Below the pieces are notes generated by a model. It was not told where the DNA came from and searched no databases. It worked only from the letters and a program-made list of their open reading frames with translations. Shown piece by piece: positions 43,251 through 45,964 of a stretch of DNA of 64,000 bases. The stretch's first letter is position 1. Each line of letters starts with the position of its first letter. The translations under genes and the position numbers were made by a program. The DNA is taken from IMG/VR virus record IMGVR_UViG_3300028591_000002, positions 110,718 to 174,717 of that record; one strand, 5' to 3'. The stretch is from a virus (taxonomy: Duplodnaviria > Heunggongvirae > Uroviricota > Caudoviricetes).

Positions 43251-43536
43251 ATTTAACTAAATTAAAAATACAACAAATAATTTCATCTATTGTATCTAAT
43301 GGCAATGGCTCATAATTTATCCTATCTCCATTACACATTAAACTATATTGCCCAAAGAAATCTGGGCAGGGATCTGTTCTTTCTGGACTATACTCATTGT
43401 GATAATCCTGTCTTTCTAAAGTGATTGGAAAGAATATACCTGTTTGGTTTATTATATCCAAATCTTTTTTTAATGCTTCTTCTCTTGGTGTCATATCAAT
43501 AAAAATTAGTGGACGGGGTGGGACTTGAACCCACAT
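43231..43536 (-). CDS. hypothetical protein
   Basis: 101 aa ORF; its 5' end overlaps a tRNA-like fragment, so the start is uncertain. Confidence 0.35.
   Translation of the reverse strand: MWVQVPPRPLIFIDMTPREEALKKDLDIINQTGIFFPITLERQDYHNEYSPERTDPCPDFFGQYSLMCNGDRINYEPLPLDTIDEIICCIFNLVKYGKANS
43510..43534 (-). ncRNA. tRNA-like 3' module (acceptor strand plus T-arm); candidate Y-RNA-like (YrlA-type) element next to rsr
   Basis: ggacggg-gtggg-acttgaa-cccac. No matching 5' acceptor or D-arm within 150 nt. Followed by the motif tcgatgaaactgtt (43570-43583), which recurs at 45895-45908. Confidence 0.35.
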
Positions 43537-43804
43537 ATTTTAGTACTCCAAAAACTAATGTTATAACCTTCGATGAAACTGTTAATCATGACTACTATTT
43601 TAATAGAGAATATTGACTACAGCAAAATCTTTTTTTTAACTACCCGCCCAAGTTAGCACTTTAGTAGCTTTCACTGGTTCCGTAATTATAGGCCGGTTTC
43701 CTTTCCCATGGTAAGCCTTCAGACCGAAGTCCAAAGGCTTAAAGAAATAAATTTAATTAAATACATGCTTACATGAAACGTGTTCAATTTCCTTGTAAGA
43801 TTAG

Positions 43805-43829
43805 GAGAGAAGACTGGACTCGAACCAGT
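43805..43829 (-). ncRNA. second tRNA-like 3' module near rsr
   Basis: agagaag-actgg-actcgaa-ccagt; no 5' half found. Confidence 0.3.
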
Positions 43830-43988
43830 AATTTGGAGACCGAAACACTTTTAATTACTTTTATAAACTTTATTTATTATCGAAGTATCTCTTTTACTGG
43901 CTGCCTTTTTACAGGAGATTATTATAAAAGAGTTAAAAAGATTCCACGTTTTACCAATTAAACTACTTCTCTCTTTATGTCTATAAGA

Positions 43989-45656
43989 TTAAATCTTATA
44001 TTGTCTGATTTTGTCAATGTGTTTCATAGCATTGAACTCTTGAGCTGCAATGTCTTCGTACAACATCGAACCATAACCGTAGTAATAGCTTACCTTATCA
44101 CTCTTAAGTGGAACTGTGCCATAAGCTGCAAGGTCTACTGCATAAATGTATGGTGAGCATACATCATGAATATAAGAACGATAAGAATCACTTGTCAGAT
44201 TCCTAGAATTTACTTCATAATCTGAAATAAAGATAATTCTATCATAAACTGCTTTTTCTCTGCGGAGAAGGTCAAATGCCTTATATGGGTATGTACATCC
44301 ATCAGTGGCAGTTCCAATTTCATCAGCAAGAGCAAAAACGTTCTTGTTCTTATTGTATCCAAATCGATATGCGTTTGAACCAAATTTAATTATATCAGCT
44401 CCAGTTGCCTTAGCAATAGTAGCTGCAATTAAACCAGCTTTATACGCACAAGATTCAGTCTTTCTCATTCCTCTTGAATTCCAAATATATTTAGGAGAAT
44501 CCTTTCCATCGCAGAAACTATAGCTACTCATTGAACCTGAACAGTCTACAATAACGGCAGTTCTACCAGGCATTACTTCCTTTAAATTTGGAATTGCTGC
44601 AATATAACCATCTTGAAGTGCTTGTTGCACTTGTGGAGAATAGTCTATATCTGCAAATTCGTTTATTACAACCTCATAAGCAAGGTCGAAATGACAAGGG
44701 AGAATCAATGCTTTACGTACAATGGTTGGGTTTGTGATAAGTTTACACCAGTTATCAATGATTTCCTTACGAGGATTCTCCATGATATTTCTGATGTTAC
44801 GAAGTGCTGCAAGTACTCCTAACTTACCTTCTTTAAGAAGAGATTCCCAGTTATCTGCCTTAGCTTCAGCAAGAATCTTTTCTCCTTCTGCTTTAGTAAT
44901 CTTACCTTCACGTACTGCCTTAGCAACTTCTTGTCCTGCTTCGGACTGAGCTGCTTCCCAAGTATCGGCAGTTATTGTTACCCCATTCATAATGGCGTCA
45001 ATAACCTTAACAACCTCACCATTGATTGTAACAGTAGCCTTAGACTTACTGGAATTAGGGTGAGCTAAATTGGCAATGTCAATTACAGTATTTCTGTATT
45101 TAGCCAAACTATATGTGTCCAGATTTTCAAGCACAGAAGCAAATCCCTTCTTCATTGCATTTGAAAGTGGTGAAGTATTAAGAGATGCGTATACATCTTT
45201 AATTTCTGTCATATCATCTGGTCTAAAGATTGTACCACCACACTTATTCTTTTTATCGAATAAGCCATAGAATCTTTTAGCATAGTCTGTTCCAGAAATA
45301 AATGGACTAACTAATGCTGCAGCCAAATGGTTGATAGAACGCATACCTTCTCCAAGACAACGAGAATATGCAATTGCTTGTGCTACAAAATAAGGATCTT
45401 TTAATCCAATTCTTTCGATAAGGTCTCTGAGTTCTTTCATTGTCTCAGATTCTGTACGATAGAATTGTGGAGTAATCTTTAAAGTGTTAAGCATAGTAAC
45501 AAGACGAAGTTCATCATCTAATGAATATGCTTTAAAACCTTGACGGTTTACTGTGTCTTCTTGAGGTATTGAAGCAACCTCTTGGACTCTTTCTTTAGTG
45601 GCCATAGCACCTAGTGCTGACTTCAGTTGACCATTTCTCATTTTCATTTTTACCAT
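43989..45656 (-). CDS. rsr: Ro60/Rsr-like protein (TROVE domain plus C-terminal vWA with MIDAS)
   Basis: 555 aa; C-terminal ...AVIVDCSGSMSS... MIDAS; the overall architecture TROVE-like N-terminus plus vWA matches bacterial Rsr. Confidence 0.65.
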   Translation of the reverse strand: MVKMKMRNGQLKSALGAMATKERVQEVASIPQEDTVNRQGFKAYSLDDELRLVTMLNTLKITPQFYRTESETMKELRDLIERIGLKDPYFVAQAIAYSRCLGEGMRSINHLAAALVSPFISGTDYAKRFYGLFDKKNKCGGTIFRPDDMTEIKDVYASLNTSPLSNAMKKGFASVLENLDTYSLAKYRNTVIDIANLAHPNSSKSKATVTINGEVVKVIDAIMNGVTITADTWEAAQSEAGQEVAKAVREGKITKAEGEKILAEAKADNWESLLKEGKLGVLAALRNIRNIMENPRKEIIDNWCKLITNPTIVRKALILPCHFDLAYEVVINEFADIDYSPQVQQALQDGYIAAIPNLKEVMPGRTAVIVDCSGSMSSYSFCDGKDSPKYIWNSRGMRKTESCAYKAGLIAATIAKATGADIIKFGSNAYRFGYNKNKNVFALADEIGTATDGCTYPYKAFDLLRREKAVYDRIIFISDYEVNSRNLTSDSYRSYIHDVCSPYIYAVDLAAYGTVPLKSDKVSYYYGYGSMLYEDIAAQEFNAMKHIDKIRQYKI

Positions 45657-45866
45657 AATTCATTGACTATTTTTTAATTTAAAAAGAAAAGTGTAAAGAA
45701 AATTATCAAACGAAAAGCAAGTTTTTTCGGAATGACAGTCTGAATTCGATGAATTCGTTTGATTGACTTTTACACATTAGGTACATAAAGAATATTATTG
45801 AACAGAAAACAAAATTGATAGAAAGATTACAAGTCTTTTGCGTGTACCATTCCGCCATATCCAGAA

Positions 45867-45908
45867 AAGGATACTGGGACTCGAACCCAGAGAATCGATG
45901 AAACTGTT
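45867..45908 (-). ncRNA. third tRNA-like 3' module plus conserved tcgatgaaactgtt motif, upstream of rsr
   Basis: aaggata-ctggg-actcgaa-cccag followed by atcgatgaaactgttcaattgac. Confidence 0.3.
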
Positions 45909-45964
45909 CAATTGACTATTATGTATTATAAGTTTATACAGAGAAAACAGGAAAGGAATAATGT

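What the first reader, a model, noticed from the sequence alone, without database searches (positions are those of the whole stretch)
43500..45940. Ro60/Rsr (TROVE+vWA) orthologue flanked by tRNA-like half-molecules: candidate phage Rsr plus Y-RNA-like (YrlA-type) module
The 555-aa protein has the Rsr architecture (TROVE-like body, C-terminal vWA with DCSGSM MIDAS). On both sides there are isolated tRNA 3' modules (acceptor strand plus T-arm) that lack 5' halves, at 43510, 43805 and 45867. Two of them are followed by the same 14-nt motif tcgatgaaactgtt. In bacteria, Y-RNA-like RNAs with tRNA-like domains are encoded next to rsr. Spurious plus-strand ORF 43773..43961 is a translation of one of these modules.
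Basis: partly seen in the sequence, partly recalled or inferred. Interest (0 to 1): 0.7.

Follow-up and report, generated by a model that had tools for sequence, protein, structure and literature searches.

The report
Phage Ro60 with new Y-RNA family
A large phage encodes a Ro60 (Rsr) RNA-binding protein surrounded by small RNA genes that join a conserved, previously undescribed two-helix stem to tRNA-like bodies, and the same stem recurs beside related Ro60 genes in many other phages and bacterial chromosomes, so it looks like a second, overlooked class of Y RNA.

Summary
The 555-aa ORF (43989-45656, minus strand) has the Ro60/Rsr fold: the 13 best Foldseek matches in the PDB are all full-length Ro60/Rsr, and the MIDAS residues are invariant.

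The "tRNA 3' halves" are not halves.
- E3 (45783-45924) is a circularly permuted tRNA-like cloverleaf with a loop-closed acceptor stem.
- E2 (43805-43972) and E1 (43507-43649) have their 5' halves about 100 nt upstream, with a conserved stem-loop inserted between.

All three share one module with four further RNAs in the window: H1 / UAGYNAN / H2 / UUACUUCG ... H2' / AAYWUUCU / H1'.

H1 and H2 covary. The module sits on the Ro strand next to Ro genes in three independent sets of loci. A covariance model built from phage copies gave 68 hits, all on the Ro strand, in 78 bacterial Ro loci.

A closed half-module also lies just before the Ro start codon in 31 of 89 distinct Ro leaders, against 7 of 2290 control ORF starts. 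This suggests autoregulation.

Rfam YrlA does not reach threshold, and the YrlA motif GNCGAA is absent.

Ro binding to these RNAs is inferred, not shown.

The parts
43989..45656 (-). Ro60/Rsr-like protein gene, 555 aa: a HEAT-repeat (TROVE) ring plus a C-terminal vWA domain with a MIDAS site.
   Evidence: The AF2 model has pLDDT 75.9. The Foldseek top 13 PDB hits are all full-length Ro60/Rsr/TROVE, E 2e-14 to 7e-12. PHROG_850 'RNA-binding protein' matches at 3.4e-21. A profile search against PDB finds TROVE at 1.1e-5 and Ro60 at 0.008. Pfam TROVE alone scores 14.8 bits, below its cut-off of 23.
45657..45688 (-). Leader 'half-module' of the Ro mRNA: UUCU, a hairpin, UAGUCAA, then 6 nt and the AUG. 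Candidate operator that mimics the RNA module.
   Evidence: The same arrangement occurs in 31 of 89 distinct Ro leaders against 7 of 2290 control ORF starts. No other gene in the window has it. It is conserved in close relatives.
45691..45775 (-). C3: an 85-nt 'mini' Y-like RNA. It is the stem module with a 33-nt loop and no tRNA part.
   Evidence: Python scan. It is one of the 15 sequences used to train model R1, where it scores 49.6 bits. Fifteen homologous minis show covarying H1 and H2, with compensatory changes at 14 of 14 pairs.
45783..45924 (-). The order is T arm, acceptor closed by a UUUUCU loop, D arm, then an anticodon-like arm with loop CUUGUAA.
   Evidence: R1 scores it 25.5 bits, E 0.007. 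Homologues are L173 952-1092, L004 and L001. The sister class B has 97% of cells paired and compensatory changes at 28 of 34 pairs.
45935..46068 (-). C1: the stem module formed by the leader and trailer of a canonical-looking tRNA-Asn(AUU), which lies at 45965-46037.
   Evidence: The tRNA scores 63.8 bits. The module motifs are seen. R1 scores it 27.2 bits, E 0.003. The orthologous payloads are tRNA-Asn(GUU) in L173 and tRNA-Lys(UUU) in L172.
43805..43972 (-). E2: a tRNA-like RNA with an open acceptor stem, D arm and T arm. Its anticodon loop is replaced by about 105 nt that hold the module closed by a loop: CUCUUUUA / UAAUAAUCU / CCU-GUAAAA-AGG / CAGCCAG / UAAAAGAG / AUACUUCG.
   Evidence: Rfam tRNA scores 40.2 bits with a 105-nt insertion. 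The fold z-score is -3.06. The closed-arm scan finds it, and the same type in L173, L108, L125, L013 and L027. No sequence homologue of E2 itself was found.
43507..43649 (-). E1: an acceptor stem plus T arm (no D arm or anticodon arm) carrying the closed module and a V hairpin. It has G3:U70 and A73, and a 3' tail CUA.
   Evidence: It gives a tmRNA-like partial match of 19.6 bits. A six-member family (alignment A4) shows covarying acceptor stem, H2, H1 and V hairpin. Homologues lie downstream of Ro in L173 (two copies), L172, L045 and L001.
43650..43804 (-). Unexplained structured spacer between E2 and E1. It holds a degenerate copy of the module's 5' half (UUGAACAC GUUUCAUG) and a strong UUCG hairpin.
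   Evidence: It has no homologue in any fetched locus and no Rfam match.
24189..24315 (-). C6: the module flanking a second tRNA-Thr(UGU), about 20 kb from the Ro gene.
   Evidence: R1 scores it 43.8 bits, E 4e-7.
22942..23068 (-). C7: the module enclosing a permuted T arm, an acceptor stem (with an encoded GCCA) and a D arm. It has no anticodon arm.
   Evidence: R1 scores it 40.1 bits, E 3e-6.

Best explanation
The locus is a phage Ro60 ribonucleoprotein system.

The Ro60-like protein is encoded among at least five adjacent same-strand genes for non-coding RNAs, with two more about 20 kb away. All of them share a stem module of about 45 nt:
- an outer helix H1;
- an internal loop, 5' UAGYNAN and 3' AAYWUUCU, probably a helix with a bulged U followed by A-U and G-C pairs;
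- an inner helix H2;
- then UUACUUCG.

I infer that this module is the Ro60 binding site, playing the part of the bulged stem of Y RNAs.

The variable part joined to the module takes several forms:
- a tRNA-like body in the YrlA order (T arm, closed acceptor, D arm);
- a tRNA-like body with a free acceptor end and the module as an internal arm;
- a complete tRNA;
- nothing at all (the 'mini' form).

By analogy with YrlA and the Ro-Y RNA-PNPase complex, the tRNA-like part would recruit or decoy tRNA-binding factors, while Ro supplies its ring.

A closed copy of the module core lies directly before the Ro start codon. It would let Ro repress its own translation when free of RNA.

Shown: the protein fold, the RNA structures, their conservation, and their linkage to Ro genes. 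Inferred: Ro binding to the module, autoregulation, and the downstream effector.
For: Protein:
- Foldseek's top 13 hits are all Ro60/Rsr.
- The MIDAS residues are invariant.

RNA structure:
- RNAalifold on alignments that were not selected for the stem recovers H1 and H2. Compensatory changes occur at 28 of 34 pairs in class B, 21 of 24 in class E and 14 of 14 in the minis.
- In class B, 97% of cells are paired, against 73% when shuffled (0 of 500 shuffles reach it) and at most 44% when slid.
- The 3' motif UUCU was not imposed in the scan, yet 36-38 of 40 copies have it.

Model R1:
- It finds five full-length copies in the window, all on the Ro strand, with E from 2e-8 to 7e-3.

Linkage to Ro:
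- Set 1 (48 IMG/VR loci plus the window): 80 copies on the plus strand, which is the Ro strand in the loci. There are 22 on the other strand, 5 of them the window's own, where Ro is on minus. Shuffled sequence gives 7 and 7.
- Set 2 (79 loci of a Ro clade 33-38% identical): 44 loci have the module, 60 copies on the Ro strand against 5 antisense. Shuffled sequence gives 1 and 1.
- Set 3 (bacterial-genome Ro loci; no overlap with the R1 training set): the regex scan of 80 loci gives 70 copies against 0 antisense. R1, run on 78 of them, gives 68 hits, all on the Ro strand, in 42 loci.
- In loci chosen by the RNA pattern alone, Ro is the only recurrent neighbouring protein. It is present in 8 of 52 loci with a module and 0 of 68 without.

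Not a general tRNA signal:
- 26 of the 28 canonical tRNAs in the window lack the module.

Leader mimic:
- It occurs in 31 of 89 Ro leaders against 7 of 2290 controls.
- The motif variant matches each clade's own module, UAGUCAA or UAGUAAA.

Architecture:
- It equals the Rfam YrlA consensus: a 6-bp stem, an internal loop, a 7-bp stem, then T arm, closed acceptor and D arm.
- A relative gets a sub-threshold but full-length YrlA hit of 27.2 bits.

Precedent:
- Phage Ro60 with adjacent Y-like RNAs is known (PMC4201824; PMC12135203).
Against: - No binding or expression data exist.
- Rfam YrlA does not reach its gathering score in the window or in 30 related loci.
- The YrlA motif GNCGAAN0-1G and the CGAA motif are not conserved here.
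- Two copies in the window lie about 20 kb from Ro.
- 44 of the 52 pattern-selected loci that carry a module (by my reading about 17 of the roughly 25 in which the queried pattern itself forms the module) show no Ro within the few kb held. Ro-independent copies therefore cannot be excluded.
- A Y-type stem formed by the leader and trailer of canonical tRNAs is unprecedented. It could equally be a processing signal.
- The leader hairpin is absent from one intermediate phage clade and from the one bacterial Ro leader examined.
Confidence: 0.7

Rival explanations
1. These are unconventional tRNA genes: permuted, split or carrying an insertion. The conserved stem is a maturation signal, analogous to the leader-trailer helix of permuted tRNA genes in red algae or of permuted tmRNA genes. 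The products would be functional tRNAs, possibly in two pieces. Ro is nearby only because it sits inside tRNA arrays.
For: - Class A and B members have all four arms and a 7-nt anticodon-like loop with U33 and a purine at position 37.
- Several copies encode N-CCA or N-CUA right after the acceptor 3' strand, like the phage's normal tRNAs.
- The module flanks two canonical tRNAs in the window, scoring 61-64 bits.
- Ro genes of this clade sit in same-strand tRNA arrays in nearly all phage loci scanned and in bacterial loci too.
Against: - C7, E1 and class E have no usable anticodon arm.
- The minis have no tRNA part at all, yet they are the commonest form next to divergent Ro genes.
- The anticodon differs among orthologous copies: UGU, GCA, UGA and GAA for E3, and AUU, GUU and UUU for C1.
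- E3's anticodon, Thr-UGU, duplicates two normal tRNAs.
- Only 2 of 28 canonical tRNAs carry the module.
- This reading does not explain the copy of the module core at the Ro start codon.
Confidence: 0.15
2. The module is bound by some other factor, from the host or the phage, such as a nuclease or a chaperone. That factor also controls Ro translation. Ro is therefore co-regulated with these RNAs rather than being their partner.
For: - Linkage and the leader motif show a shared recognition element, not which protein reads it.
- Some module loci show no Ro in the flanks held.
Against: - Ro is the only protein family that recurs beside the module.
- The linkage holds from phages to bacterial chromosomes of 26-65% G+C, where the rest of the neighbourhood differs.
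- Ro60 proteins are known to bind exactly this kind of stem (PMC4201824; PMC12135203).
Confidence: 0.08
3. The module is a self-cleaving ribozyme, or the inverted-repeat ends of a small mobile cassette that shuffles tRNA genes.
For: - The same flanks enclose interchangeable payloads.
- ORFs resembling homing endonucleases (GIY-YIG-like, NUMOD1) occur near some copies.
Against: - No Rfam ribozyme family matches.
- G-U pairs and the asymmetric conserved loop point to an RNA-level structure on one strand only.
- Strand bias is strict: 68 to 0 and 70 to 0.
- The core is reused at the Ro start codon.
Confidence: 0.05
4. The pieces are decaying remnants of ordinary tRNA genes with no function.
For: - The region lies in a tRNA array.
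- One degenerate partial copy of the module exists, around 43788.
Against: - Every helix shows compensatory covariation.
- The motifs are conserved from 26% to 65% G+C.
- Model R1 gives significant E-values.
Confidence: 0.02

Closest known systems
YrlA (Rfam RF02553), the tRNA-mimicking bacterial and phage Y RNA of Chen et al. 2014 (PMC4201824)
   Same: - Encoded within a few kb of rsr, on the same strand.
- The 5' and 3' ends pair into an outer stem, an internal loop and an inner stem.
- The effector part follows the order V, T arm, closed 'acceptor', D arm.
- Some copies have a 7-bp acceptor stem followed by CCA-like sequence, as in M. smegmatis YrlA.
- It is accompanied by smaller RNAs that have only the stem, like YrlB.
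   Different: - No hit reaches the Rfam gathering score. There is no hit in the window, and the best relative scores 27 bits against 69.
- The conserved motifs are UAGYNAN, AAYWUUCU and UUACUUCG, not GNCGAAN0-1G.
- The same stem is also found as an internal arm of tRNA-like RNAs with open acceptor ends, around complete tRNAs, and at the Ro start codon.
- Some members keep a full anticodon-like arm.
Canonical Y RNAs (metazoan Y1-Y5, D. radiodurans Yrn1) and Thermus phage phiLo Yrl1/Yrl2 (PMC12135203)
   Same: - Size of about 70-140 nt.
- A terminal stem with a conserved bulged or internal-loop region.
- Partnership with a Ro60 ring protein.
- The phiLo genes lie upstream of Ro, like C1-C3 here.
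   Different: - The sequence motifs differ: GGUCCGA or CGAA against UAGYNAN and UUCU.
- No binding, PNPase tethering or structure is known for the present family.
Circularly permuted tRNA genes (Cyanidioschyzon merolae and other algae) and permuted two-piece tmRNA genes. This comparison rests on my own knowledge; no paper was read for it.
   Same: - The gene order is the 3' half (T arm and acceptor 3' strand), a short linker, then the 5' half.
- A leader-trailer helix is present.
- Some copies encode NCCA before the linker.
   Different: - There is no bulge-helix-bulge motif.
- Many members cannot decode.
- Bacteria and phages lack the splicing endonuclease pathway.
- The link to Ro60 has no parallel in those systems.
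Autogenous translational operators that mimic the protein's main RNA target (ribosomal-protein leaders, phage coat-protein and RegA operators). This comparison rests on my own knowledge; no paper was read for it.
   Same: A copy of the conserved core of the partner RNA sits at the ribosome-binding site or start codon of the gene for the presumed binding protein.
   Different: To my knowledge this has not been described for any Ro60 gene. Here it is inferred from sequence alone.

Membership tests
Ro60 / Rsr (TROVE) proteins | A ring of HEAT-like helical repeats (TROVE domain) followed by a vWA domain, over the full length of the protein | tested here: met
   The AF2 model compared with PDB gives 13 top hits that are all Ro60/Rsr/TROVE. 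They cover 536-606 alignment columns with TM 0.46-0.57 (query-normalised) and E from 2e-14 to 7e-12. Isolated vWA domains follow.
Ro60 / Rsr (TROVE) proteins | MIDAS motif DxSxS...T...D in the vWA domain | tested here: met
   VDCSGSM is present. D371, S373, S375, T455 and D479 are invariant in 22 homologues.
Ro60 / Rsr (TROVE) proteins | A score above the curated cut-off of Pfam TROVE (PF05731) or NCBIfam Rsr | tested here: not met
   Pfam TROVE scores 14.8 bits against a cut-off of 23. NCBIfam Rsr scores 13 bits against 900. However, homologues 64-78% identical carry precomputed PF05731 hits, PHROG_850 matches at 3.4e-21, and a profile search against PDB finds TROVE at 1.1e-5.
YrlA (RF02553) | Covariance-model score at or above the gathering score of 69 bits | tested here: not met
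   No YrlA hit falls on the elements at E<=10 in the window. None reaches the gathering score in 15 phage and 15 bacterial loci. The best is 27.2 bits, full length, on the class C element L007 5849-5968.
YrlA (RF02553) | Encoded within about 4 kb of the Ro60 gene, on the same strand | tested here: met
   C1-C3, E2 and E1 all lie within 500 nt of the gene on the minus strand. The strand bias in three sets of loci is shown.
YrlA (RF02553) | A terminal stem from the paired 5' and 3' ends, with a tRNA-like domain in the order (V) T arm, closed acceptor stem, D arm | tested here: met
   E3 and C7 in the window, and classes A-E in relatives, show this with covariation. E1 and E2 do not: their acceptor stem is open and the stem module is closed.
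YrlA (RF02553) | The motif GNCGAAN0-1G near the 5' end (PMC4201824) | tested here: not met
   The conserved 5' motifs are UAGYNAN and UUACUUCG. The base after UUACUUCG is A in 15 and U in 20 of 42 copies, so CGAA is not conserved.
Y RNA (functional definition) | Bound by Ro60 in vivo | not testable with these tools
   Only co-location, co-orientation and the leader mimic bear on this.
tRNA (RF00005) | A contiguous cloverleaf at or above the gathering score, with a usable anticodon arm and a free acceptor end | tested here: inconclusive
   The payloads of C1 and C6 pass (63.8 and 61 bits). E2 passes only with a 105-nt insertion (40.2 bits). E3 scores 25.3 bits, below the cut-off of 29, and is permuted. 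E1 and C7 lack an anticodon arm.
tmRNA (RF00023) | A tRNA-Ala-like domain plus a tag reading frame and pseudoknots, at or above the gathering score of 47 | tested here: not met
   E1 scores 19.6 bits through its acceptor stem and T arm only. G3:U70 occurs in 1 of 6 family members. The phage's real tmRNA lies at 24317-24601 and scores 72.5 bits.

The most novel reading that the evidence does not exclude
This is a widespread second class of Y RNA, found in large phages and in Bacteroidota, Verrucomicrobiota, Cyanobacteriota and other chromosomes.

Its conserved Ro60-binding stem would be a portable module:
- it is grafted onto tRNA mimics;
- onto tRNA-like RNAs with a free, possibly chargeable acceptor end;
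- and onto genuine tRNAs inside tRNA arrays;
- and it is copied into the Ro mRNA leader as an autoregulatory operator.

On this reading, Ro60 RNPs of this clade act directly on the tRNA pool. They might carry out quality control or protect array-encoded tRNAs, or present decoy anticodon loops to host tRNA-cleaving defences.
Probability: 0.3. Interest if true: 0.85.

Novelty: new variant of a known kind. Interest (0 to 1): 0.72.

Why it matters
Y RNAs have been found for only part of the bacteria and phages that encode Ro60. Chen et al. (PMC4201824) noted Ro60-bearing species in which no YrlA could be identified.

The module defined here gives a searchable signature (model R1 and the motif consensus). 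It picks out candidate partner RNAs next to a large, divergent Ro60 clade:
- more than 2000 protein clusters in metagenomes;
- phages of up to about 430 kb;
- several bacterial phyla.

It also makes three ideas testable:
- that Ro60 recognises a bulged helix of a different sequence from the classical one;
- that Ro60 regulates its own translation through an RNA mimic;
- that Ro60 RNPs are functionally tied to tRNA gene arrays. This is relevant to phage counter-defence, since a Ro60-like protein of phage Bas63 next to tRNA genes counters the ppl defence system (PMC11482910).

Tried and rejected
- **Rfam YrlA and Y_RNA** were run on the window, on the elements alone, and on 30 related loci. Nothing reached threshold.
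- **E2 as a tRNA with an intron** was rejected. The 105-nt insert is too short for a group I intron (from my own knowledge), and it contains the conserved module.
- **E1 as a mini-tmRNA or alanine acceptor** was rejected. G3:U70 is present in only 1 of 6 family members, and the real tmRNA lies elsewhere.
- **The heptamer TAGTCAW as a general promoter or ribosome-binding signal** was rejected. There are 20 copies against 27 expected, and no other gene start has it.
- **The module as a general pre-tRNA processing signal** was rejected. 26 of 28 tRNAs lack it.
- **The sigma-70 promoter and terminator scan** was uninformative.
- **RNA-repair genes (RtcB, PNK) among neighbours** were looked for in ten ORFs. 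Only Band_7 and YkuD_2 domains turned up.
- **Cultured relatives:** the best phage record is 29.7% identical and unannotated.
- **Homologues of E2 and of the 43650-43804 spacer:** none were found.
- **Literature** on Ro with tRNA arrays, or on permuted tRNAs in phage: nothing relevant was found. Two reviews and the supplement of Chen 2014 are not held.

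
Full report
**Context**

The window is AT-rich. The stretch around the finding is about 28-46% G+C. Almost all genes lie on the minus strand. ARAGORN and Rfam find about 28 tRNA genes, a tmRNA and two suppressor-type tRNAs. This is the make-up of a large phage. The same protein occurs on contigs of 167-410 kb, and exactly on one of 178 kb.

**The protein**

ORF 43989..45656 (minus strand, 555 aa) is weak against curated profiles:
- Pfam TROVE scores 14.8 bits against a cut-off of 23.
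- NCBIfam Rsr scores 13 bits.

Other evidence is strong:
- It matches PHROG_850 'RNA-binding protein' over its whole length, E 3.4e-21.
- A 22-sequence profile finds TROVE-domain chains (1.1e-5) and Xenopus Ro60 (0.008) in the PDB.
- An AlphaFold2 model (pLDDT 75.9) has as its 13 best Foldseek matches only full-length Ro60/Rsr structures: Thermus phage phiLo Ro60, Xenopus and human Ro60, and Deinococcus Rsr. E runs from 2e-14 to 7e-12, and isolated vWA domains follow.
- D371, S373, S375, T455 and D479, the MIDAS residues, are invariant.

More than 2000 protein clusters are related to it. The nearest deposited phage is only 29.7% identical. More distant phage homologues are annotated as Ro-like or TROVE.

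**The 'half tRNAs'**

All three T-arm pieces are real, but none is a half.
- **E2.** The Rfam tRNA model aligns 43805-43972 from position 1 to 71 (40.2 bits), with 105 nt inserted in the anticodon arm.
- **E1.** 43507-43649 has GGGCGGG pairing with CCCGUCC (G3:U70, A73) and a T arm, with about 100 nt between them. Rfam sees it only as a weak tmRNA-like end, 19.6 bits.
- **E3.** At 45783-45924 the order is T arm, acceptor 3' strand, a UUUUCU loop, acceptor 5' strand, D arm, then an anticodon-like arm. This is a circular permutation, enclosed by UUGAACAG...CUGUUCAA and ACAUAA...UUAUGU.

**A shared module**

I scanned 49 related IMG/VR loci for a T arm followed by a closed acceptor hairpin. This found the permuted arrangement in most loci, always on the Ro strand.

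Printing their flanks showed one constant frame:

5'-H1 / UAGYNAN / H2 / UUACUUCG ... body ... H2' / AAYWUUCU / H1'-3'

The frame encloses different bodies:
- permuted tRNA-like domains with or without an anticodon-like arm;
- complete tRNAs whose +1 nucleotide is the last G, or the CG, of UUACUUCG;
- short loops of 14-40 nt ('minis');
- in E1 and E2, the frame itself is closed by a small loop and forms an internal arm of a tRNA-like RNA with free acceptor ends.

In the window the family has seven members plus a leader element:

| Element | Coordinates | Body |
|---|---|---|
| C1 | 45935-46068 | around tRNA-Asn(AUU) |
| C2 (= E3) | 45783-45924 | permuted tRNA-like |
| C3 | 45691-45775 | mini |
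| E2 | 43805-43972 | closed module inside a tRNA-like RNA |
| E1 | 43507-43649 | closed module inside acceptor stem plus T arm |
| C6 | 24189-24315 | around tRNA-Thr |
| C7 | 22942-23068 | permuted, no anticodon arm |

The other 26 tRNAs have no such flanks. The frame is therefore not a general pre-tRNA signal.

**Is the structure real?**

- Alignments made without reference to H1 or H2 give these helices back from RNAalifold. Class B has 34 pairs, 28 with compensatory changes. Class E has 24 pairs, 21 compensatory. The minis have 14 of 14.
- For class B, 97.0% of cells are paired. Shuffling gives 72.8% (0 of 500 shuffles reach the observed value), and sliding the partners gives at most 44%. 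H1 has double changes at 7 of 7 pairs.
- The E1 family (six sequences from four phages) shows covarying acceptor stem, H2, loop-closed H1 and V hairpin.
- In a scan that imposed no 3' motif, 36-38 of 40 copies end the 3' strand of the loop in UUCU.
- Covariance model R1, built from 15 minis, scores five window copies full-length on the minus strand: 49.6 (a training sequence), 43.8, 40.1, 27.2 and 25.5 bits, with E from 2e-8 to 7e-3. The best plus-strand hit scores 22 bits.

**Link to Ro60**

1. In the first set of loci, 80 modules lie on the plus strand, which is the Ro strand there. There are 22 on the other strand, five of them the window's own, where Ro is on minus. Shuffled sequence gives 7 and 7.
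2. A second Ro clade, 33-38% identical to the window protein, was fetched by protein alone. In these 79 loci, 44 carry the module, with 60 copies on the Ro strand and 5 antisense. Shuffled sequence gives 1 and 1. Many are minis just upstream of Ro.
3. GTDB genomes gave 80 loci, including a 5.16-Mb Nibricoccus contig and a 3.56-Mb Sericytochromatia contig. The regex finds 70 copies on the Ro strand and none antisense. Model R1, run on 78 of these loci and with no training overlap, finds 68 hits at E<=0.01. All are on the Ro strand, in 42 loci, mostly upstream of Ro. In a 58-63% G+C Verrucomicrobia locus the motifs are still UAGUGAG, UUACUUCG and UUUCUC.
4. Starting from the RNA pattern alone, Ro is the only recurrent neighbouring protein. 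It is present in 8 of 52 module-positive loci and 0 of 68 negative ones.
5. The Ro leader itself carries UUCU, H1', a loop, H1 and UAGYNAN, ending 0-22 nt before the AUG. This is seen in 31 of 89 distinct leaders against 7 of 2290 control ORF starts. H1 covaries, and the heptamer variant is that of the clade's own RNAs: UAGUCAA in the window's subclade and UAGUAAA in the second clade. In the window this element is 45657-45688.

**Comparison with what is known**

Ro60 with adjacent tRNA-mimicking Y RNAs (YrlA) is established in bacteria and in 22 phages (PMC4201824). Thermus phage phiLo Ro60 binds two upstream Y-like RNAs and host PNPase (PMC12135203). Jumbo phages are known to carry TROVE proteins (PMC7824862). 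Phage Bas63's Ro60-like gp130 lies next to tRNA genes and counters the ppl defence (PMC11482910).

The Rfam YrlA consensus has the same layout as the RNAs here: a 6-bp stem, an internal loop, a 7-bp stem, then T arm, closed acceptor and D arm. It gives a full-length but sub-threshold hit (27.2 bits against 69) to a class C relative.

However, no element in the window, nor in 15 phage and 15 bacterial loci, reaches the gathering score. The defining GNCGAAN0-1G motif is replaced by other conserved sequences.

I therefore file this as working like YrlA and Y RNA, but not as a member of RF02553. It is a new variant class. I found no paper describing it. Two reviews and the Chen 2014 supplement could not be read, so earlier mention cannot be fully excluded.

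**Mechanism**

- Shown: the Ro60 fold, the structured RNAs, the module, the linkage, and the leader copy.
- Inferred: Ro60 binds the module. The bulged U followed by A-U and G-C pairs recalls the bulged helix of Y RNAs.
- Inferred: the tRNA-like part engages tRNA-recognising factors, and free Ro represses its own mRNA through the leader mimic.

What the RNP does remains open. The options are PNPase-type RNA decay, tRNA quality control within arrays, or decoys for anticodon nucleases. Anticodon-like loops keep their shape but change triplet between orthologous copies. This fits mimicry better than decoding.

The main rival, unconventional tRNA genes whose stem is a maturation signal, is weakened by three observations:
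- members without any anticodon arm;
- the minis;
- the leader copy.

It is not excluded for C1 and C6.

Noticed in passing
window 43650-43804 (minus strand): A structured spacer lies between E2 and E1. It has a degenerate copy of the module's 5' half (UUGAACAC GUUUCAUG) and then a strong hairpin, AAGCCUUUGGACUUCGGUCUGAAGGCUU. It has no homologue in any fetched locus and no Rfam match.
   Followed up: partly
window 43989-44105 (protein residues about 514-552): The C-terminal 40 residues or so of the Ro60-like protein match the CW_7 repeats of the Cpl-7-type lysozyme 5i8l in a profile search (whole-sequence E 3.6e-6, though each repeat alone is weak). The meaning of this for a Ro60 protein is unknown.
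   Followed up: no
window 24317-24601 (minus strand): The phage encodes its own short tmRNA of 285 nt (Rfam 72.5 bits) with the tag AEIDYFNMAA. It sits directly upstream of module C6.
   Followed up: no
window 23490-23560 (minus strand): This is a tRNA-like chimera. Its 5' part is a normal acceptor strand and D arm (GCGAAAGUAGCUCAGUUGAUAGAGC). Its 3' part is nearly identical to the tmRNA 3' end (…GUUCGACUCCCAUAGGCUCCACUA). The two acceptor strands do not pair. ARAGORN's 'permuted tmRNA' call at 22997-23584 probably stems from this and from C7.
   Followed up: partly
window 30632-30704, 59147-59221 and 46431-46507: The window holds suppressor-type tRNAs with anticodons UUA and CUA, and a tRNA with an 8-nt anticodon loop (4-base anticodon UUCA). 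They hint at stop-codon recoding or frameshift suppression in this phage.
   Followed up: no
window 45965-46037; also L009 5512-5583, L033, L037 and L016: Several tRNAs in these phages have A at position 34: Asn-AUU, Asp-AUC, His-AUG, Tyr-AUA, Thr-AGU and Pro-AGG. This is unusual for bacteria. The orthologous payload of C1 is AUU, GUU or UUU in three related phages.
   Followed up: partly
L007, L008, L012, L016-L019, L025, L028, L043 and L047, just upstream of the Ro start codon: An intermediate Ro clade lacks the leader half-module. Instead it has a conserved ACCUUGUACUA (or CCGAUACUA) directly before the AUG. GUACUA is nearly complementary to the module heptamer UAGUA(A)C, so pairing with the RNAs is conceivable.
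   Followed up: no
L253-L331 (GTDB genomes), for example L318 110-1872 and 4432-5199, L309 and L280: Ro60 genes of this clade in the 15 bacterial loci checked with Rfam (Opitutaceae, Saprospiraceae, Sericytochromatia and others) are also embedded in long same-strand tRNA gene arrays. A link between tRNA arrays and Ro60 seems general, and I found no description of it.
   Followed up: partly
L013 1013-1074: An Rfam 'freshwater-1' RNA (86 bits) lies inside the tRNA array of a related phage.
   Followed up: no
L059, L107, L146 and L168; L172 6063-6758; L173 73-726: ORFs resembling homing endonucleases (GIY-YIG-like, NUMOD1, DUF559) recur near the RNA arrays.
   Followed up: no
window 43231-43536 (minus strand): The listed 101-aa ORF begins inside the T arm of E1 (MWVQVPPRP...). 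The true start is probably the internal Met of ...IDMTPREE, at about 43494.
   Followed up: no
L262 = L046 (ONIZ01000001.1, 410,106 bp) and L332 (169-kb 'Prevotella sp.' MAG contig): Contigs deposited as bacterial MAGs ('uncultured Firmicutes bacterium RUG343', 'Prevotella sp.') carry this phage-type Ro locus. ONIZ01000001.1 is the same sequence that IMG/VR lists as a viral genome. L332 is probably a phage genome binned as bacterial, but this was not checked.
   Followed up: no
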